Source: a virus. Taken from it: a stretch of DNA of 64,000 nucleotides. A program made the position numbers and the translations under genes. Below are positions 35,785 through 45,894 of this stretch, one piece after another. The first letter of the stretch is position 1, and each line of letters starts with the position of its first letter. The notes beneath the pieces are model-generated. The model was not told the origin of the DNA and ran no database searches. It saw only the letters and a program-made list of their open reading frames with translations. The stretch is from positions 1-64,000 of the IMG/VR virus record IMGVR_UViG_3300048798_000032. One strand, 5' to 3'.

Positions 35785-36887
35785 CCACTCCTCCTGCCCT
35801 CACCGTCCAGCAGCGCCTGACCCTGGCGAAGTGGCTGCTGGAGAGCATCGGCAACCAGCGCAAGGACGACCTTGTGCCAGCAAGCCGGGACGAGATGCCC
35901 TCTGGCAGCCGGGTAGCGGCCATGTTCGGCGGCAAGGTCGCCGCCTGGGTGGTCATGCCGAAGCCGAAGCAGCCGGGCGCTTATGTGTCCGACCCGGTGA
36001 AACTGCTCGCCTGGGTGCGGGAGAACTTCCCGCACCAGGTCGTGCCGGTGACTGAGGTCGTGGAGTCACCGGAGCTGATCGAGCACCTGCGGAAGCACTT
36101 CCCCTCGGCGCTCAAGGTGACCGACACGGTAGAGACCTACCTGGTCTCCGACATCTGCACCGGACTCAAGGACCGCGGTCACTTCTACGACGGCGACGAG
36201 GAGAAGGTCTCCGACATACCGGGGATCACGCTGCCCGAAGCTGAGCCGCCAGTCCCCACGGTCACCCTCACCGACGACGCGGAGGCGGTCATCGGTGAGG
36301 CGTGGCGCGGTGGGGCCATCCCCGTAAGTGAACTGCTCGCACTGCCCGGCGGCGGTGAACCTGATGCCACCTGAGTACACCACTCCCGAGGACGGCGACC
36401 TAGTGCTCTGGGCGGCGTGGGCCGAGGACCATCTGGACTGTGCGGGCTGGAGCTTCGACGGCCACGCGCTCACCTGCGCATGCGGAGCGCCTATCCCGCT
36501 CGCCGCTGAGGTTTCGGCATGACCGCCACCGAACAGCGCTCCGTACACGATCCGGTCGCTGTCGAGCAGAAGATCGAAGAGACGAAGAACCGGATCGCCA
36601 AGGGCGTCACGATCATCACCGAAGCCGAGAAGAAAGCCAAAGCGGCCCGGACCAAGTTCGACTTCGAGTTCGCTCTTGCGATGGGCCGTGCCACAGGTCC
36701 AGCGACCAGCCACAAGTATCAGGCGACCGTCGACACGATTGAGTGGCGGAAGATCGCCGAGGGTGCCGAGATCGCGTTCAAGCACGCTGAGCGCACCGCC
36801 CACGCGCTGGACAAGGAACTGTTCGCGTGGCAGTCGATTCTCAACTCCGTCCGGTCGATGTACAGCGCCGTGGGGGTGCGCGGGTGA
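35781..36887 (+). other. coupled hypothetical genes (35781-36374, 36364-36522, 36519-36887 coiled-coil)
   Basis: overlapping start/stop codons. Confidence 0.6.
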
Positions 36888-36978
36888 ATGTAATCCAGGC
36901 ACGCGAGGAACTGGTCAAGGCTGCTATCGGATGGCACACAGAGAACTCACTGCCCGCCGTCGGTGAGGGGCTGGACTC

Positions 36979-37578
36979 ATGAGCGCACCGATCGCTTTCC
37001 TAGACACTGAAACGACAGGGCTTGACCCCGACCGGCATCAGATTTGGGAAGTCGCCCTCATCACACCTGACGGCGGCGAGCATGTCTGGCAGTTCCCCAT
37101 TGACGAGATGGAAGCCGACCCGTTCGCGCTGAATATCGGCCGCTACTGGGACCGCCGCTGGCCCCCGGGCATCAGGGAAATCTCACTTCCCGCTGCCATC
37201 TACTCGGCGCACACGCCGGAGTCGCGGCGCAAGAACTTCCCCGGTCAGGGCCGCGCGATCACCCCTGGCCCCGAATGGTGCCGCCACTTCCGCGACCTGA
37301 CCGCCGGGCTTCACCTCGCTGGCGCGGTCGTGTCGTTCGATGAGGAACGCCTGCGGCGGCTCCTGCACCGCAACGGCGTGCTGCACCGCTGGCACTACCA
37401 CCTTTGTGACGTGGAAGCGCTTGCCGCCGGGAAGCTCGGCCTTGAGCCGCCGTGGAACTCCGACGACCTGTCGGCCGCGCTCGGCGTCACGGTCAGCGAT
37501 GAAGACCGGCATACCGCCCTCGGTGACGCCCGCTTTGCCAAACGCATTTACGAGGCGGTTATGGCTGGTGACCGATGA
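36979..37578 (+). CDS. DnaQ-like DEDDh exonuclease
   Basis: FLDTETTGL, SFD, HTALGDA. Confidence 0.88.
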   Translation: MSAPIAFLDTETTGLDPDRHQIWEVALITPDGGEHVWQFPIDEMEADPFALNIGRYWDRRWPPGIREISLPAAIYSAHTPESRRKNFPGQGRAITPGPEWCRHFRDLTAGLHLAGAVVSFDEERLRRLLHRNGVLHRWHYHLCDVEALAAGKLGLEPPWNSDDLSAALGVTVSDEDRHTALGDARFAKRIYEAVMAGDR

Positions 37579-38156
37579 GAAGTGTGGAAGAACGCTTTCT
37601 GTCTCACGTTGATAAGCGTGGACCCATTCCCGCCCATCGTCCCGACCTGGGTGCATGTCATCTATGGACTGGCTCGGTTGACGAGAAGGGTTACGGATGC
37701 TTCGGTGACGGTAAGCGCTCCAGGAAAGCGCATGCCTTCGCGTATGAAGCGGCCAAAGGCCCAATTCCCGAAGGCAAAGAACTTGATCACCTATGTCGTA
37801 ACCGGCCTTGCGTCAATCACGCATACCTAGAAGCGGTAACCCATCGGGAGAATTGCCAGCGAGCACAGTATTTGCAGGAAACATGCTCACGAAATCACCC
37901 GCTGCCAGATCCGGGCCCTGATGGCCGGCGTATCTGCCGCGAGTGCGCCAATGAGCGCAACCGGGCATACAAGAAGCGCCAGCGCGCAAGTCGGACCCCA
38001 AAAGAATCACGGCCATTTACGCATGGCAGGGGTGCGTACACGCATCACGGCTGCCGATGTGAAGTGTGCTGTGACGCGGAAAATTCCTACAAGCGTCAGT
38101 GGCGACGAGACCAGAAAGTGCGGATCTATGACGCGGTGATGCGGGGTGCGCTGTGA
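37575..38156 (+). CDS. HNH homing endonuclease
   Basis: CHLWTG, GYG, AH, DHLCRNRPCVN..LEAVT.REN; lower GC than neighbours. Confidence 0.88.
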   Translation: MRSVEERFLSHVDKRGPIPAHRPDLGACHLWTGSVDEKGYGCFGDGKRSRKAHAFAYEAAKGPIPEGKELDHLCRNRPCVNHAYLEAVTHRENCQRAQYLQETCSRNHPLPDPGPDGRRICRECANERNRAYKKRQRASRTPKESRPFTHGRGAYTHHGCRCEVCCDAENSYKRQWRRDQKVRIYDAVMRGAL

Positions 38157-40967: not shown

Positions 40968-42638
40968 ATGACCCCTCTTAATTCCCATTCACCCGGCCGG
41001 GTAGCTGGGGAAGGGTACCCGGCCGGTGGAGGGCCCGGCGTCAACCTGGATCTGTTCGGCGGCCCTGGTGGGTGGGCCGAGGCCCTGGCCGCGCTCGGCC
41101 TGACTGAGATCGGGATCGAGCTCGACGCGGCAGCGTGCGCGACCCGCCGGGCCGCAGGCCACCTAACGATCCGGGCCAGCGTCGCGGCCTTCCCGGTTGA
41201 GCAGCTCGCCGGGCGCGTGCGCGGGCTAGCAGGCAGTCCCCCTTGCACCACTTTTTCGCAGGCTGGCCTTGGTGCGGGTGTCAGGGTCATGGAGATCCTC
41301 GCTCTGGCCATCCGTGACGCGCTCGCTGGCCGCAAGACAAGGGCGCGGCGGATGCGGGAGATGGCCCGTGCGCTCCGTGCCGCCTGGTGGACCGACGCGA
41401 AAGTCAAACTCGATGCTCGGCTCACCCGCGCGGAACGGTCGGCGCGCATCTGGAAGGCCGTCAGGTCGGCCGCCCTGGTCATCGAGCCCGCGCGGTACAT
41501 CCACGCGTGCCGTCCCGAGTGGATAGCGCTGGAGCAGGTTCCCGCCGTCCTGCCGCTGTGGCAGGCGTACGCCACCGAACTCCGCAAGCTGGGCTACTCG
41601 GTATGGGTGGGCAAGCTCAACGCCGCAGATTTTGGTGTGCCGCAGACCCGCGTCAGGGCCATCCTCATCGCCAGCCGGGTACGGAAGGTCACGGTGCCGG
41701 AGCCGACCCACTACGACCCGCGCAAGGGTGATCAGCTCTGGGGTGAGCACTGGGTCAGCATGGCCGAGGCGCTCGGCATAGGCGCGACCGGCCGCCCGGC
41801 ACCCTCCGTGACCGCCGGTGGAACGTCTACCGGGGGTGCCGAGCCGTTCGCCCGCGGTGGCCGGGGCGCGCTCGAGGCCGAGCGGGACGCCGGCCGGTGG
41901 GTGCTGCGGATGGACACCCAGGCGCACGCGTCCGTCCGTGACGTGACAGCGCCAGCGCCAGCGCTGAAGATTGGCCATTCTGCTGCGGATTGTCAATGGG
42001 TGCTGCTGCACACCAACCGTGACCAGCGTCCCGATGGCACCCGGCAGACCGCAGACCCGCATACCGCGCCCGCGCCCGCGCCCGCGCTGACGAGCAAATC
42101 GGGTGGCCAGTGGGAACTGCACCGCAGCAGGGGCGCGAGTGTCAGCCGCCGCGACCATCCCGCCGATGAGCCAGCACCAACGATTACCGGCGCTGGCGGC
42201 AAGCCTGGCGGCAACCTGACGTGGAAACTCCGCAACAACAACAACAACAACAACGCGTGTGAACGGTCAACCGATGAACCGGCTGGGACGTTGTTCTTTG
42301 GCCAGCGGTCCAACTGGGCGGCATGGGTGACCGAGCGCCCGGCAACGACCGTTCAGGGCGACCCGCGGATCGGCCGGCCGGGGCACAAGGGCCCCGAGTC
42401 CGGTGGCGAGTCACAGTTCGCCGTGGACTCCGTCCGCATCACGGTCACCGAGGCTGCGGTACTCCAGTCGTTCAGGCCGGACTATCCGTTCCAGGGGACT
42501 AAGTCGGCGCGGTTCCGGCAAGTGGGCGACGCCTGGTGCCCGCTGGCGGCTATCGCTGTGGTCGGCGTGGCTACCGGTATCGACTGGCGCCCGGTCGCTG
42601 AGAAGTACACCGAGTCGTGCCGGGAGCAGGCCGCATGA
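40968..42638 (+). CDS. orphan DNA cytosine-5 methyltransferase
   Basis: DLFGGPGG, GSPPC, EQV, GVPQTR.R, QVGDA; long variable region with PAPT repeats; start uncertain. Confidence 0.88.
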   Translation: MTPLNSHSPGRVAGEGYPAGGGPGVNLDLFGGPGGWAEALAALGLTEIGIELDAAACATRRAAGHLTIRASVAAFPVEQLAGRVRGLAGSPPCTTFSQAGLGAGVRVMEILALAIRDALAGRKTRARRMREMARALRAAWWTDAKVKLDARLTRAERSARIWKAVRSAALVIEPARYIHACRPEWIALEQVPAVLPLWQAYATELRKLGYSVWVGKLNAADFGVPQTRVRAILIASRVRKVTVPEPTHYDPRKGDQLWGEHWVSMAEALGIGATGRPAPSVTAGGTSTGGAEPFARGGRGALEAERDAGRWVLRMDTQAHASVRDVTAPAPALKIGHSAADCQWVLLHTNRDQRPDGTRQTADPHTAPAPAPALTSKSGGQWELHRSRGASVSRRDHPADEPAPTITGAGGKPGGNLTWKLRNNNNNNNACERSTDEPAGTLFFGQRSNWAAWVTERPATTVQGDPRIGRPGHKGPESGGESQFAVDSVRITVTEAAVLQSFRPDYPFQGTKSARFRQVGDAWCPLAAIAVVGVATGIDWRPVAEKYTESCREQAA

Positions 42639-42694
42639 ACAATCCCATCCCTCTATCCCCTCTAAGAGCAAAGCTCAGCGAGGAGGGGAGAGGG

Positions 42695-42898
42695 TCAGGA
42701 GTCGGCGGAGACCTTCTCGAACTCAGCCTGATAGCGGCGCACCTGCTCGCGGGTCAGCTTGAGCGTGGCCGCGATGTCGGCCTGCGTGATGTCGCTGCCG
42801 CGGGCCTCCACGATGGCGCGGCCGAGCGCGAGCCGGGTCTCTCTCACCTGCTCGCGGGCGGCCAGATAGGCGTCTCGCGCAGCAACGACGTTGGCCAT
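42695..42898 (-). CDS. small HTH regulator
   Basis: ITQADIAATLKLTREQVRRY; divergent from the repeat locus. Confidence 0.75.
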   Translation of the reverse strand: MANVVAARDAYLAAREQVRETRLALGRAIVEARGSDITQADIAATLKLTREQVRRYQAEFEKVSADS

Positions 42899-42968
42899 GG
42901 CACCGGTCACCTTCCGATTGTCACATGGATGTGGCCTAGGGCAAGTATGCAACATAGACGGGTGCCAC

Positions 42969-43005
42969 GCAACATGTTGCACTGCCACATACTGTGTGGC
43001 ATAGT
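42969..43005 (+). promoter_or_regulatory. promoter with overlapping palindromes
   Basis: TTGCAC-17-CATAGT; GCAACATGTTGC (42969-42980) and TGCCACA-N5-TGTGGCA (42983-43001). Confidence 0.7.
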
Positions 43006-43010
43006 CGGGA

Positions 43011-43367
43011 CCAGCGTGGCGAGGCCCGGCGGTGCGGGGCATGACCGGTCGCGGCTATGGCTAGCCCGGGTTGGGCGAGGCATGGATTCACCAGGGCGGA
43101 TGGCATACAGCCGGGTTCGGGTCCCGGTCGCCCACGCTGGGCTTGGCAGGCCAGTGGCATCGCTGGCCCCGGCATGGTTCGGCTGGGCGCGTCATGGCTC
43201 GCCAAGGCCGGGCTAGGCAAGGAACTACGGCCGACAGGAAGGCACTGGGGTTCGAGCCCTCAGCGGTCACGCAGGGTGCGGCAGGGCAGTGCCAGGCAGG
43301 CCCCGGCGCGGCTCGTTATGGCTGGGCACGGCAGAACCCGGCTTGGTATGGCCCGGCAAGGCAAGGA
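43011..43367 (+). ncRNA. NN-GGY pentamer array, tracts 1-3 with two mini tRNA-like elements
   Basis: tracts 43011-43086 (15 pentamers), 43138-43223 (17), 43273-43367 (19; 14 with GGY); elements 43094-43136 and 43229-43271. Confidence 0.8.
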
Positions 43368-43386
43368 CGCAACGAAAGGGAGAGCG

Positions 43387-43959
43387 ATGGACTTCCGGAT
43401 CACGATCAAGGGCACGGACAGCTTGCTGATGCACAATGCGCGGCTGGCCAATCCGCTCGACCCGGCCGCGAAAGCGGTCAAGAAGCTCACGGGCAAGCGG
43501 AACAAGACCGATGACGACTACGAGGAACTCGCCCACGTTGAGTGGCAGGGGTCGTTCTACTTCGATCCCGACGTCGGCCCGTTCATCCCCGGCGACAACA
43601 TCTGGCGTTCGCTCTATGACGCGGCCAAGAAGCACAAGAAGGGCCCGCGCATCAAGGAAGGCGTGTTCATCGCCACCAGCATCAACCCGATCGCCTATGC
43701 GGGTGCGCGCAGCCTGGACGCGCTGTGGGCTGACGAGAACTTCAAGCACTTCGCCTCGGTGAAAGTCGGCACGGCGCGGACCTCCCGCTGCCGCCCGATG
43801 TTCCGCCAGTGGAAGGTCGCAGCCGATGGCGTGCTGGACACGAATGTCATGGACCTAGCCGAACTCCAGCAGGTTGCCGAGACGGCCGGCTCACTGATCG
43901 GGCTAGGGGACTGGCGCCCGCGGTACGGCCGGTATGTGGCCGAGGTGGAGAAGGTCTAG
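43387..43959 (+). CDS. stand-alone Cas7/RAMP-like protein (190 aa)
   Basis: GAAAGGGAG RBS; FRITIKGTDSLLMHN strand, PFIPGDNIWRSL, C-terminal G-loop GSLIGLGDWRPRYGRY. Confidence 0.75.
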   Translation: MDFRITIKGTDSLLMHNARLANPLDPAAKAVKKLTGKRNKTDDDYEELAHVEWQGSFYFDPDVGPFIPGDNIWRSLYDAAKKHKKGPRIKEGVFIATSINPIAYAGARSLDALWADENFKHFASVKVGTARTSRCRPMFRQWKVAADGVLDTNVMDLAELQQVAETAGSLIGLGDWRPRYGRYVAEVEKV

Positions 43960-43967
43960 GTCTCACC

Positions 43968-44268
43968 TGGGCGTGGCGGGGCGGCGCAAGGCAATCCCAG
44001 GCTTCGCGGGGCGTGGCCGGACAGTGCACTCCTGGCCAAGGCAGCACCAGGGCTTGACAGGGCATTCAGGGTGACCGGCAGGCATCAGGGTTCAAGCCCC
44101 TGACACCCGCGCAGGGTGCGGCTTGCCTGGGCGAGTCGGGCCTGGGCGCGGCCATGCGAGACCGGTCACGGCCGGGCAGTACCTGGCTAGCCGAGGCAAG
44201 GAAGGGCGACATGGCAGACATCAGGGTCCGAGTCCCTGACGCCCACGCTAGGCATGGATACGCAAGAC
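43968..44268 (+). ncRNA. NN-GGY pentamer array, tracts 4-5 with two mini tRNA-like elements and a short stub
   Basis: tracts 43968-44063 (19), 44113-44202 (18); elements 44069-44111 and 44204-44247; stub 44249-44268. Confidence 0.8.
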
Positions 44269-44282
44269 GGAAGGAATCAGGA

Positions 44283-44843
44283 ATGGCAGACAGGGCACCA
44301 TTCGAGCCCATCGGAGAACAAGCCCGGTGGCGCGTGATCTATGAGGCACTGAAAGACGTCCCAGTGGGCGAGACGATTACCTACGAGCGTCTCGGGACTG
44401 TTCTCGATCTTGACCCGAAGGACGACCGGAGCGTCATTCAGCAGGCCATGCACCGCGCAGCCTACGAGTTGGAGACGCAGGACAAGCACGCGGTCGACTC
44501 GGTGCGCGGCATTGGCTACCGCGTCGTAGAGCCTGTAGAGCACATGGGCCTAGCGGTCAGGCAGCAGAAGCGTTCCCGCAGGGCCTTGGAGCGCGGCCAG
44601 TCCAAGGTTGTCAACGTGGACCTCACTGGCATGGAACCGGAAATCCGCAAGGCGTTTGAGGTGCTAGCGACCGGGTTCGCACTTCAGGCCGACTTTAACC
44701 GCCGCATCGAGAACCGGCAGGCGCGACTGGACCGGGCACTGCGTGAGATCAGCGACACGCAGGACACCGACCGCAAGCACAGCGACGAGGAGATCACCGA
44801 ACTCCGCGAACGGCTGGCGCGGCTTGAAGCGGGCACTACCTGA
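44283..44843 (+). CDS. accessory protein, winged-helix-like N-terminus plus coiled coil
   Basis: VPVGETITYERLG...SVRGIGYRVV; heptad-rich C-terminus. Confidence 0.65.
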   Translation: MADRAPFEPIGEQARWRVIYEALKDVPVGETITYERLGTVLDLDPKDDRSVIQQAMHRAAYELETQDKHAVDSVRGIGYRVVEPVEHMGLAVRQQKRSRRALERGQSKVVNVDLTGMEPEIRKAFEVLATGFALQADFNRRIENRQARLDRALREISDTQDTDRKHSDEEITELRERLARLEAGTT

Positions 44844-44850
44844 GTCTTCT

Positions 44851-44905
44851 GGGGCAACGCGTGGCTGGGCACAGCTAGGCGAGTCCAGGCGTGGCGCGGC
44901 ATGGC
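44851..44905 (+). ncRNA. NN-GGY pentamer tract 6
   Basis: 11 in-phase pentamers, 8 with GGC. Confidence 0.7.
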
Positions 44906-44931
44906 AACTACAAGCGGGAAGGTGGCCTTAG

Positions 44932-45894
44932 TTGGCCCGCATCCGGAGCATCAAGCCCGAGGCGTTCACGTCAGAAACGCTGGCCAGCCGCCATGTTCAT
45001 GCGCGGTGGACGTTTGCCGGGCTGTGGTGCTACGTGGATGACGAGGGTCGCGGGCTGGCGAATCCCGGTCTTATCAAGGCTGCCGTTTGGCCGCTAGATG
45101 ACGACATTTCAGTAACCCAGGTGGGCGCATTTCTGGATGACCTTGAAGCCGCCTATGTGATCTGCCGCTACGAAGTTGACGGTAAGCGATACCTGCATGT
45201 CGTCAACTTCGGGGAGCACCAGCACCCGAACCGGCCGCTCCCCAGTAAGTTGCCCGCCTGCTCACGGAGGACTCACGGAGGACTCAGTGAGCAGGCAGTA
45301 CGCACTCATCCGGAAGGCCCTGGCGGTGCTCCTGGCACCCCGGCGGCATCTTCTGAGGCCACGACCACCGAAACCGGGATCCAGGGCGACATAGGCGCAG
45401 GTCAAGACCCACTCACTGAGGACTCAGTGAGTGGTCACGGAGTTGTTAATCCAAAGCCGTCCGGTACCCCTCCTACTCCTCTCCGTTACGAACAAGGAGA
45501 AGGAGATGGAGGGGGAGATGGAGTTCAGCAGGCTACGCCTGCTGCCGCGAAGGACTCGCGGCAGCTCACGGTCACGCAGCGCTCAAAAAGGCTTACCGAC
45601 GCCTATGCCGAAGCCGAGCCGATGTGCAAGTGGCCGGCCGTGAACACCGCCGTCATCCGGGCAATCAAAACCGAGAAGTACGCCGACGAGGAAATCCGCG
45701 ACGCCCTGCTGCGAATGGCCAAGGACGGCACGGGCGTGACCATTGAGTCGCTGCGGGTCGAGCTGGCCGGCTTCGGCAAGCGTGGCTCTGGCCAGCAGTC
45801 CGCTACAAGCCAATCCACGGGGGCCGACCGTGCCCGTGCTGCCCGTGAGGCGGGCCAGCGTGTTCAGGCAATGCTCGAAGGAGGGAACCGGTGA
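44932..45894 (+). CDS. phage replication initiator-like protein
   Basis: MARIRSIKPE, GLWCYVDDEGRG, RYEVDGKRYL..NFGEHQ; internal GAGGACTCA repeats. Confidence 0.75.
   Translation: MARIRSIKPEAFTSETLASRHVHARWTFAGLWCYVDDEGRGLANPGLIKAAVWPLDDDISVTQVGAFLDDLEAAYVICRYEVDGKRYLHVVNFGEHQHPNRPLPSKLPACSRRTHGGLSEQAVRTHPEGPGGAPGTPAASSEATTTETGIQGDIGAGQDPLTEDSVSGHGVVNPKPSGTPPTPLRYEQGEGDGGGDGVQQATPAAAKDSRQLTVTQRSKRLTDAYAEAEPMCKWPAVNTAVIRAIKTEKYADEEIRDALLRMAKDGTGVTIESLRVELAGFGKRGSGQQSATSQSTGADRARAAREAGQRVQAMLEGGNR

What the first reader, a model, noticed from the sequence alone, without database searches (positions are those of the whole stretch)
43011..44905. Six tracts share one scaffold but carry different dinucleotide strings
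The triad position is conserved (mostly GGC/GGT) while NN varies. T1 cc gt ga cc gg gg at cg gc at ta cg tg ga at. T2 tg tt ag gt at tg cc at tc tg gc at tc aa cg ta aa. T3 ag gc ag ag ca ag cc gc tc at tg ac ag cc tt at cc aa aa. T4 tg gt gg gg aa aa ca tt gg gt cg ag ac tg aa ag ag tt ag. T5 ag gc tt tg ga gg tg gc ca ga cg ac cg ag ct ta ga aa. T6 gg aa gt tg ac ta ga ca gt gc at. T1, T2 and T4 each have one 1-nt phase slip; T1, T2, T3 and T5 end GGCAWGGA. Lengths of 15-19 units (11 in T6) are too uniform and NN too diverse for slippage repeats. Inference: spacer information is interleaved; if read NNxNNx it could ignore codon wobble (T4 would begin W-V-G-G-K-K-Q-L, T6 G-K-V-x-T-Y-x-Q-V-A, both speculative).
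Basis: partly seen in the sequence, partly recalled or inferred. Interest (0 to 1): 0.88.

Follow-up and report, generated by a model that had tools for sequence, protein, structure and literature searches.

The report
Phage VIPR guide-RNA arrays

Summary
Six tracts of period-5 NN-GGC units lie on the + strand between 43011 and 44905. They score far above shuffled sequence and occur nowhere else in the 103-kb phage genome.

They flank a 190-aa gene (43387-43959) that matches the solved SUSP1 Vipr protein (PDB 36pp) at E = 1.8e-31 and folds as a minimal Cas7-type RAMP. A winged-helix accessory gene follows at 44283-44843. Together these form a VIPR system as described in 2026 bioRxiv preprints: one Vipr protomer binds each GGY triad, and the NN pairs read double-stranded DNA while skipping every third base.

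I checked that rule in this clade. Only the 1-nt skip gave matches above controls. A relative's guide matches rival vipr genes at 25/26, and this window's vipr at 24/26, but its own at only 19/26.

Guide T2 of the window reads antisense as YRFDIAHEIGHIT, the zinc motif of ImmA/IrrE anti-repressor peptidases. It matches such a gene at 22/26. I found no targets for the other five guides.

tRNA-like minihelices separate adjacent guides. This is an array architecture that the main text of the VIPR preprints does not mention.

This scan has already noted VIPR loci, tRNA-like separators and ImmA-directed guides on other DNA. Verdict: a new member of a known kind.

The parts
42695..42898 (-). Divergently transcribed small HTH regulator gene (67 aa), a repressor or Cro-like neighbour. 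Context only, not part of VIPR.
   Evidence: ORF list. PHROG 686 'HTH DNA binding protein' at E 4e-6, plus weak Pfam HTH hits.
42929..43005 (.). Divergent control region with operator-like palindromes (TGCCACA-N5-TGTGGCA; TGCAACAT...ATGTTGCA). Presumed start of the rightward early transcript that carries the arrays.
   Evidence: Inverted repeats I1, I4 and I6. No sigma-70 consensus promoter and no intrinsic terminator between 42600 and 45100. The transcription start is inferred, not shown.
43011..43086 (+). vrRNA tract T1. NN string: gt ga cc gg gg at cg gc, a 1-nt slip, then at ta cg tg ga. Ends GGC-at-GGA.
43095..43132 (+). tRNA-like minihelix E1: a 5-bp acceptor-like stem, an 11-nt GG-containing linker, and a T-arm with loop TTCGGGT. 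It separates T1 from T2.
43138..43223 (+). vrRNA tract T2. The 13 NN after its slip (gt at tg cc at tc tg gc at tc aa cg ta) read antisense as Y-R-F/L-D/E-I/M-A-H/Q-D/E-I/M-G-H/Q-I/M-T, which fits the ImmA/IrrE HEXXH motif. Ends GGC-aa-GGA.
43229..43268 (+). tRNA-like minihelix E2 (acceptor GGCCG/CGGTC, T-loop TTCGAGC). It separates T2 from T3.
43272..43367 (+). vrRNA tract T3: 18 NN, no slip, ends GGC-aa-GGA. It runs straight into the vipr ribosome-binding site with no minihelix after it.
43387..43959 (+). vipr gene: 190-aa minimal RAMP (Cas7-like) protein with the C-terminal glycine-rich loop GLGDWRPRYGR.
   Evidence: phmmer against PDB 36pp_D 'SUSP1 Vipr protein' gives E 1.8e-31 over 184 residues; the family profile gives E 3.5e-44. 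AF2 model pLDDT 91. Every row of the Foldseek list is a class 1 or type VII CRISPR effector complex or Csm3. VIA Z 10.2 to a Csm complex chain and 9.4 to Csm3. PHROG 4652. 573 homologues.
43468..43505 (+). Site inside vipr (codons for A-K-A-V-K-K-L-T-G-K-R-N-K). A relative's guide (L007) matches it at 24 of 26 NN positions under the 1-nt skip rule, so it is a predicted target of a rival VIPR.
43968..44063 (+). vrRNA tract T4: 17 NN, then a slip near the 3' end. It starts 9 nt after the vipr stop codon.
44069..44108 (+). tRNA-like minihelix E3 (GGGTG-ACCGGCAGGCA-TCAGGG-TTCAAGC-CCCTGA-CACCC). About 90% identical copies occur in Streptomyces and Mycobacterium phages.
44110..44202 (+). vrRNA tract T5: 17 NN, no slip, ends GGC-aa-GGA.
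44204..44244 (+). tRNA-like minihelix E4 (GGGCG/CGCCC acceptor, T-loop TCCGAGT). It lies between T5 and the vap gene.
44283..44843 (+). vap-like accessory gene: 186 aa, with an N-terminal winged helix (residues about 15-81) and a long coiled coil.
   Evidence: AF2 pLDDT 88. Foldseek gives weak hits to OmpR/PhoB-, GntR-, MarR- and ScpB-type winged helices (E 0.007-0.1, probability up to 1.0 on about 75 residues). Weak Pfam DNA_binding_1 hit and PHROG 5926. 61 homologues, one of them on the L007 contig.
44851..44905 (+). vrRNA tract T6: 11 NN, with neither the GGA-type ending nor a minihelix. It lies directly upstream of the replication-initiator gene.
44932..45894 (+). Replication initiation protein gene. 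Context only: the next gene of the early operon.
   Evidence: PHROG 2149 at E 2e-36.

Best explanation
The locus is a VIPR (Viral Interference Programmable Repeat) system of an uncultivated temperate actinophage from peat. It consists of vipr (43387-43959), a winged-helix vap-like gene (44283-44843) and six vrRNA genes.

By homology with the solved SUSP1 system, the expected mechanism is as follows. The early rightward transcript is cut into guide RNAs. One Vipr protomer binds each GGC triad, building a helical filament that sequesters the triads and presents the NN dinucleotides. The filament then reads double-stranded DNA two bases at a time while skipping every third base, and represses transcription of the bound gene.

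The targets are most likely genes of competing mobile elements. T2 appears aimed at the HEXXH codons of ImmA/IrrE-type anti-repressor peptidase genes. Relatives carry guides against rival vipr genes, including this phage's own vipr.

The tRNA-like minihelices between adjacent guides are most likely processing signals read by host tRNA-maturation enzymes (RNase P, RNase Z).

What is shown and what is inferred:
- Shown here: the sequence anatomy, the homology, the conserved gene-tract association, the skip-rule statistics and the covariation in the minihelix.
- Taken from the preprints: filament formation, the pairing rule and silencing.
- Inferred: transcription of this locus, the cleavage sites, and the real targets.
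For: 1. The window protein matches PDB 36pp_D 'SUSP1 Vipr protein' at E 1.8e-31 over 184 aa (family profile E 3.5e-44). SUSP1 R39 and K82, reported as clamps on the non-target strand, align with R38 and K81.
2. The AF2 model (pLDDT 91) is a Cas7/Csm3-type RAMP: Foldseek E 1.6e-5 with only class 1 and type VII CRISPR effector entries listed, VIA Z 10.2 to a Csm complex chain and 9.4 to Csm3.
3. About 70 of 79 viral loci that encode a homologue (35-74% identity) carry period-5 GGC tracts on the gene strand close to the gene. The count is about 200 tracts on the + strand against 5 on the - strand. The low-GC SUSP1-like loci carry GGT-NN tracts instead, 1-2 upstream and 1-3 downstream of the gene, and some end GGTATGGA.
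4. Triads are conserved and NN are near-uniform.
5. Skip-rule test. Exact 8-unit seeds gave 0, 5, 0 and 0 hits for skips 0-3, against 0, 1, 1 and 0 for shuffled seeds. For 12-unit windows, only skip 1 exceeded 20/24.
6. The L007 guide matches L004 vipr at 25/26, the window's vipr at 24/26 and L026 vipr at 23/26, but its own vipr at only 19/26. All matches are in codon register.
7. T2 matches an HTH plus Peptidase_M78 (IrrE/ImmA) gene at 22/26, and at 21/22 over its 3' 11 units, with skipped bases at wobble positions. Three independent phages carry guides that read H-E-x-G-H, against 0.016 expected by chance.
8. There is no self-target in the 103-kb genome, and the genome has no Peptidase_M78 gene of its own.
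9. Minihelix test. With candidates chosen on sequence alone, 67 of 140 + strand candidates have a 6/6 T stem, against 0 of 45 on the - strand. Of those 67, 55 have 5/5 acceptor pairs, against 0 of 67 in slid controls, and there are 25 distinct compensating stem pairs.
10. The preprints describe the same anatomy and mechanism.
Against: - No RNA data exist for this phage, so transcription, guide ends and RNP formation are not shown for this locus.
- Five of the six window guides have no identified target. The best T2 match lies in contigs of 55% GC that are unlikely to share a host with a 67% GC phage, so it points to a target class and not to the actual target.
- The seed for that T2 match was fixed by the search. 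Only the extension (5 of 6 further bases next to the seed) and the codon register are independent support.
- Guides here are longer (up to 17-19 NN) than the 9-16 repeats reported.
- T6 lacks the usual ending and may be degenerate or serve another purpose.
- The DNA-binding role of the vap-like protein rests on weak fold matches (E above 0.001).
Confidence: 0.92

Rival explanations
1. The tracts are a TRAP-like cis-regulatory array. An oligomeric protein, perhaps the RAMP itself, would coat the leader and intergenic RNA only to control translation, stability or termination of the early operon. The NN would be mere spacers carrying no target information.
For: The tracts lie in the 5' leader and between genes of one operon. 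Triplets with 2-nt spacers recall the TRAP binding site (my own knowledge). Most window guides have no identified target.
Against: The protein is a close homologue of SUSP1 Vipr, for which NN-programmed DNA targeting was shown experimentally. NN strings in this clade match rival vipr genes and ImmA motifs only under the 1-nt skip rule and in codon register. Pure spacers would not do that.
Confidence: 0.04
2. The tracts act at the DNA level next to the replication initiator gene. The G-rich non-template strand would promote R-loops, or serve as a dense zone of primase or initiator sites for the origin.
For: The tracts are strictly strand-asymmetric and G-rich, and they lie just upstream of a replication initiation gene.
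Against: Across 79 loci the tracts track the vipr gene and not a replication gene. The intervening minihelices covary as RNA. Homologous systems yield about 100-nt RNAs that co-purify with Vipr.
Confidence: 0.02
3. The tracts are slippage-generated simple repeats or a compositional artefact of GC-rich DNA, with no function.
For: The genome is 67% GC, and GGC is a common triplet.
Against: Scores lie far above shuffles and are confined to one strand and one 2-kb region. NN are near-random, so the units are not copies of each other. The feature is conserved beside one gene family down to 35% identity and in genomes of 41-71% GC.
Confidence: 0.01

Closest known systems
VIPR system of Escherichia phage SUSP1 and the Pseudomonas fulva prophage (type II; Vipr structure PDB 36pp; bioRxiv 10.64898/2026.04.26.720920, .720927 and 10.64898/2026.10.15.759431)
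   Same: - A homologous Vipr protein (E 1.8e-31).
- A vipr gene followed by a small predicted DNA-binding accessory gene.
- GGY-NN pentamer guides both upstream and downstream of vipr, on the gene strand.
- A GGY-AW-GGA type ending.
- The 1-nt skip rule, with skipped bases at wobble positions.
- Guides against rival vipr genes and against lysis-lysogeny regulators.
- No self-targeting.
   Different: - The host is a high-GC actinobacterium (peat metagenome phage).
- The triads are almost all GGC.
- Guides are longer (13-19 units).
- In place of the pseudoknotted 3' tail, adjacent guides are separated by tRNA-like minihelices, and guides that abut a gene have none.
- Nothing has been tested experimentally in this clade.
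Hammerhead-ribozyme-interspersed vrRNA arrays (VIPR types I and V; fig. S19 legend of 10.64898/2026.04.26.720920)
   Same: A structured RNA element sits between successive guides and presumably sets the cleavage points that release single guides from one transcript.
   Different: A hammerhead cuts itself. The minihelix has no ribozyme features and would need host RNase P or RNase Z, or another tRNA-processing enzyme. Its cleavage is inferred only.
Class 1 CRISPR effector backbones (Cas7, Csm3, Cmr4 filaments on crRNA)
   Same: The RAMP fold, a glycine-rich loop, one protomer per fixed step along a guide RNA, and periodic interruption of guide-target pairing.
   Different: There is no CRISPR array, no other cas genes and no adaptation module. 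The step is 5 nt with 2 pairing bases, instead of 6 nt with 5. Protein recognition of the guide is sequence-specific (GGY). The outcome is silencing, not cleavage.
tRNA punctuation and t-elements (mitochondrial transcripts), tRNA-like mascRNA, and the tmRNA tRNA-like domain
   Same: An acceptor-like stem stacked on a T-arm with a canonical TTCRANN loop, plus a GG-containing linker that could mimic the D-loop contact. Such an element is expected to be recognised by RNase P or RNase Z and so to mark cleavage sites.
   Different: The element has only about 40 nt and no D or anticodon arms. It has a 5-bp acceptor and a 6-bp T stem, and no encoded CCA. ARAGORN and Rfam do not recognise it.
TRAP-trp leader RNA (Bacillus)
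   Same: Conserved triplets separated by 2-3 variable nucleotides, each bound by one subunit of an oligomer.
   Different: The protein fold is unrelated. TRAP forms a closed ring of 11 subunits. Its spacers carry no information, and it acts in cis on attenuation.

Membership tests
VIPR system | A Vipr protein homologous to the characterised Vipr | tested here: met
   phmmer against PDB 36pp_D 'SUSP1 Vipr protein' gives E 1.8e-31, covering residues 4-187 of 190. The family profile gives E 3.5e-44.
VIPR system | A minimal RAMP fold: a single RRM core with a glycine-rich loop and no second RRM | tested here: met
   AF2 pLDDT 91, 190 aa. Foldseek and VIA top hits are Csm complex chains, Csm3, Cmr4 and Cas7. 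The motif G-L-G-D-W-R-P-R-x-G-R is invariant in the family alignment.
VIPR system | vrRNA genes: tandem GGY-NN (YNNGG) pentamers with a conserved triad and hypervariable NN, flanking vipr on its strand | tested here: met
   Six tracts of 11-19 units. The triad is 78-83% conserved and NN are near-uniform. The same feature occurs in about 70 of 79 homologous loci, almost only on the gene strand.
VIPR system | A conserved 3' tail after the repeat tract | tested here: inconclusive
   T1, T2, T3 and T5 end GGC-AW-GGA, and SUSP1-like tracts end GGT-AT-GGA. The structured element that follows, the tRNA-like minihelix, is present only between adjacent units. It is absent after T3 and T6, so it may be a separator and not the tail.
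VIPR system | An accessory vap gene next to vipr, predicted to act on DNA | tested here: inconclusive
   A conserved 186-aa gene follows vipr. It has 61 homologues, one of them on the L007 contig. The model shows a winged helix plus a coiled coil, but the Foldseek matches are weak (E 0.007-0.1), and the gene has no sequence link to a named vap.
VIPR system | NN strings match natural DNA targets under the 1-nt skip rule (at least 80% of NN positions), better than other skip rules or shuffled guides | tested here: met
   For the clade, only skip 1 exceeds the controls, and the L007 guide matches rival vipr genes at 23-25 of 26. For the window, T2 matches an IrrE/ImmA gene at 22/26, or 85%. T1 and T3-T6 have no target found.
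VIPR system | No self-targeting by the element's own guides | tested here: met
   The best skip-1 matches of all six guides in the 103-kb genome are at the level of shuffled guides. The L007 guide matches its own vipr at only 19/26.
VIPR system | The tracts are expressed as discrete small RNAs that co-purify with Vipr and silence targets | not testable with these tools
   No run listed for this stretch is on record as RNA; the listed runs hold peat and lake-water metagenome contigs.
CRISPR-Cas (class 1) | A CRISPR array of 25-40-nt direct repeats with spacers, plus further cas genes | tested here: not met
   No such repeats were found in the window. The neighbours are an HTH gene, the vap-like gene and a replication initiator.
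tRNA genes (for the four minihelices) | A full cloverleaf with D and anticodon arms | tested here: not met
   ARAGORN finds none. Rfam finds no tRNA hit in 42850-45000 even at E up to 10. Only the acceptor-like stem and T-arm are present.

The most novel reading that the evidence does not exclude
The tRNA-like minihelices would be a distinct, host-dependent way of maturing VIPR guides. RNase P and/or RNase Z would cut at them to release single vrRNAs. The same roughly 40-nt module is a general and so far undescribed 'cut here' mark between ordinary genes in many actinophages: 10 copies in 6 kb of Mycobacterium phage Send513 and 7 in 5.4 kb of Streptomyces phage Izzy, both without VIPR. This would be a phage counterpart of mitochondrial tRNA punctuation.
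Probability: 0.5. Interest if true: 0.6.

Novelty: new member of a known kind. Interest (0 to 1): 0.4.

Why it matters
The report adds an independent, purely computational check of the VIPR 1-nt skip code in a distant high-GC actinophage clade. It shows that the system sits in the immunity and early region of temperate actinophages.

It also suggests what these phages silence: the anti-repressor (ImmA/IrrE) genes of rival prophages, and each other's vipr genes.

It flags tRNA-like separators as a likely host-dependent route of guide maturation.

It corrects a GenBank annotation. The gene 48 'hypothetical protein' CDS of Mycobacterium phage Donkeykong is a 70-unit guide tract, and gp49 is a divergent Vipr. 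This matters because Donkeykong is a cultured phage of M. smegmatis mc2 155, so the system can be tested at the bench.

The principle itself was published in 2026, and this scan has met it many times.

Tried and rejected
- Known RNA families: ARAGORN finds no tRNA in the window. Rfam at gathering and at E up to 10 finds no known family for the tracts or minihelices.
- Thermodynamic folding: z-scores run from -0.8 to +0.2 for both tracts and minihelices, so energy alone is uninformative in this GC-rich RNA. Support for the minihelix comes from covariation only.
- Early ideas dropped once the RAMP fold and the Vipr match appeared: TRAP-like attenuator, G-quadruplex, R-loop origin, primase sites, Chi-like sites.
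- T3 and T5 target searches: exact 9-unit NNx patterns gave 0 hits in IMG/VR.
- T4, T6 and T5 target searches: the T4 8-unit seed gave 9 hits and the T6 8-unit seed gave 18 hits, and the T5 9-unit seed gave 16 hits in JGI metagenome contigs. In all of them the flanking units matched at chance level.
- T2 5' seed: 17 hits, 10 of which read AHE[IM]GH[IM]T, but the rest of the guide did not match.
- Whole-genome searches: T3 (12 units, up to 3 mismatches) was not found in 401 genomes of the family of G001. T2 (13 units, up to 3 mismatches) was not found in 301 genomes of its class. These results mean 'not found in those searched', not absent.
T1 was not scanned against the large collections.
- Sequencing runs: no RNA holder is listed. 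Other peat runs hold identical pieces with no differing letters, so they say nothing about NN microdiversity.
- Donkeykong gp47 showed no similarity to Vipr; gp49 did.
- The vap-like profile has no significant relative in the PDB.
- Complex prediction was not used. Filament formation is taken from the solved homologue.
Full report
**Observation.** The region 43000-44920 holds six stretches in which GGC recurs every five bases on the + strand. On a 12-unit score (maximum 36) they reach 29-31. The window mean is 12.1, the - strand maximum is 25, and shuffled sequence reaches 23-27. Nothing else in the 103,428-base genome reaches 27. Over 589 units from this and five related loci, the triad is 78-83% conserved, while the two N positions are near-uniform and use all 16 dinucleotides.

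**Context.** The tracts lie in the early rightward operon of a temperate phage. A small HTH gene is transcribed leftward (42695-42898). Next comes a control region with palindromes, and then the + strand carries, in order:
- T1, minihelix E1, T2, minihelix E2, T3
- a 190-aa gene (43387-43959)
- T4, minihelix E3, T5, minihelix E4
- a 186-aa gene (44283-44843)
- T6
- a replication initiator gene (44932-45894)

These assignments rest. There is no sigma-70 consensus promoter and no intrinsic terminator within 42600-45100. The record is a virus contig that CheckV rates 95% complete, and it comes from peat metagenomes.

**The protein.** The 190-aa gene has no Pfam family. It belongs to PHROG 4652 (function unknown) and has 573 homologues. 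An AF2 model (pLDDT 91) matches Cas7-type RAMPs. Every row of the Foldseek list is a class 1 or type VII CRISPR effector complex or Csm3 (best E 1.6e-5). VIA-align gives Z 10.2, 10.0 and 9.4 for a Csm complex chain, a Cmr-beta chain and Csm3. The decisive result is that the sequence matches PDB 36pp_D, 'SUSP1 Vipr protein', at E 1.8e-31 over 184 residues (family profile E 3.5e-44).

**Literature.** Four 2026 bioRxiv preprints describe VIPR systems:
- A phage-encoded minimal RAMP (Vipr) works with an accessory vap gene and with vrRNAs made of 9-16 GGY-NN pentamers followed by a tail.
- One protomer binds each repeat and sequesters the GGY.
- The NN pair with double-stranded DNA while every third target base is skipped. 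The skipped base is usually the codon wobble position.
- Binding represses transcription.
- Natural targets are satellites, rival prophage regulators and rival vipr genes.

**Association of gene and tracts.** Of 79 IMG/VR loci that encode a homologue (35-74% identity), about 70 carry period-5 GGC tracts near the gene. About 200 tracts lie on the gene strand and 5 on the other strand. This holds across contigs of 41-71% GC. The GC-poor SUSP1-like loci that my GGC score missed carry GGT-NN tracts, 1-2 upstream and 1-3 downstream of the gene, and some end GGTATGGA.

**Test of the code in this clade.** I took NN strings from all tracts in the fetched loci and searched about 0.6 Mb of related phage DNA on both strands.
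- Exact 8-unit seeds gave 0, 5, 0 and 0 hits for skips 0, 1, 2 and 3. Unit-shuffled seeds gave 0, 1, 1 and 0.
- With 12-unit windows, only skip 1 exceeded 20/24 (four windows at 21, one at 23). The other rules and the shuffles stopped at 20.
- The best case is the guide just upstream of vipr in L007. Its last 13 NN match the vipr coding sequence of L004 at 25/26, of this window at 24/26 (43468-43505) and of L026 at 23/26, all in codon register. They match L007's own vipr at only 19/26.

Guides aimed at rival vipr genes are already in print for SUSP1-family phages.

**Targets of the window's own guides.** None of the six guides has a self-target in the genome or a match in the related loci. Spaced-pattern scans of IMG/VR and JGI metagenomes found only chance-level matches for T3, T4, T5 and T6.

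T2 is the exception.
- Its 3' 8-unit seed hit four prophage-like contigs in one gene, an HTH_3 plus Peptidase_M78 (IrrE/ImmA) protein.
- The match extends to 22/26, and to 21/22 over the 3' 11 units, with the skipped bases on the wobble positions of the minus-strand codons.
- Read antisense, T2 spells Y-R-F/L-D/E-I/M-A-H/Q-D/E-I/M-G-H/Q-I/M-T, which is the zinc-binding motif of these anti-repressor peptidases.
- Two other phages carry guides with the same H-E-x-G-H reading: L004 (TLSAHELGHLVMH) and Gordonia phage MakoManhole. That is three cases against 0.016 expected by chance.
- The window genome has no Peptidase_M78 gene of its own.

The matched contigs have 55% GC. They therefore indicate a class of target and not the real rival.

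**Minihelices.** Between adjacent guides lie elements of about 40 nt. Each has a 5-bp acceptor-like stem, an 11-nt linker with a conserved GG, a 6-bp stem and a TTCRANN loop. I chose candidates on sequence alone (GG, 12 bases, then TTCRANN).
- 67 of 140 + strand candidates have a perfect T stem, against 0 of 45 on the - strand.
- Of those 67, 55 have a perfect acceptor stem, against 0 of 67 in slid controls.
- There are 25 distinct compensating stem sequences.

ARAGORN and Rfam do not recognise the elements, and folding energy is uninformative.

The elements occur only between units. They are absent after T3, after T6, and between a gene's stop codon and the next guide. They therefore behave as separators and not as an obligatory tail. 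The same module occurs without any VIPR in other actinophages: 10 copies in 6 kb of Mycobacterium phage Send513 and 7 in 5.4 kb of Streptomyces phage Izzy.

My inference is that host tRNA-processing enzymes cut there. The main texts of the four preprints never mention tRNA, but their figures and tables were not available to me.

**Accessory gene.** The 186-aa protein models as a winged helix plus a long coiled coil (pLDDT 88). It has weak Foldseek matches to OmpR-, GntR-, MarR- and ScpB-type DNA-binding domains. This fits the winged-helix vap proteins named in the preprint, but it does not prove the link.

**Verdict.** This is a new member of the VIPR family with a clade-specific array architecture.

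Earlier notes of this scan report VIPR loci in hundreds of genomes, tRNA-like separators, and an ImmA-directed guide on other DNA. I reached the same readings here from my own tests. Those notes are not independent evidence.

Noticed in passing
L008:2387-2732 and L008:2723-3466 (Mycobacterium phage Donkeykong, NC_051648.1 about 36887-37232 and 37223-37966): The CDS annotated as gene 48 'hypothetical protein' consists almost wholly of about 70 GGC-NN pentamers, so it is a guide tract and not a protein gene. The next gene, gp49, is a divergent Vipr (hhalign probability 86%, E 5e-6, with the GDWRP...YGRY motif kept). The host, M. smegmatis mc2 155, is cultured, so this is a testable system.
   Followed up: partly
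L001 (Mycobacterium phage Send513, 10 copies in 6 kb); L009 (Streptomyces phage Izzy, 7 copies); L002 (phiHau3, 2 copies): The same tRNA-like minihelix sits between ordinary small genes in phages that have neither pentamer tracts nor a Vipr hit. It is always on the gene strand and unannotated. In the phage collection, 126 records matched a query containing such elements.
   Followed up: partly
L004:2800-2879 and L003:2882-2976: Guides in a 74%-identical relative and in Gordonia phage MakoManhole share the core NN string tg-cc-xx-tc-tg with window T2, which reads H-E-x-G-H antisense. NN are therefore not fully free between relatives when the target motif is conserved.
   Followed up: yes
window:42929-43005: Operator-like palindromes lie in the divergent region between the HTH gene and T1 (TGCCACA-N5-TGTGGCA; TGCAACAT-N18-ATGTTGCA). 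This is likely the immunity switch.
   Followed up: no
window:47344-47577: A run of 39 copies of the hexamer GCCGCC (87% matches) lies inside long overlapping ORFs. This is either a low-complexity coding repeat or a different kind of repeat.
   Followed up: no
window:3540-3639: Rfam calls a tRNA (32.4 bits, 100 nt long) that ARAGORN does not report. It may be a tRNA with an insertion or an atypical one.
   Followed up: no
window:40953-42638: A 561-aa C-5 cytosine DNA methyltransferase gene lies just upstream of the immunity region.
   Followed up: no
G000 65180-65215 (+) and 94759-94797 (-), outside the window: Two further matches to the loose minihelix pattern occur elsewhere in the phage genome. 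They were not checked and may be chance.
   Followed up: no
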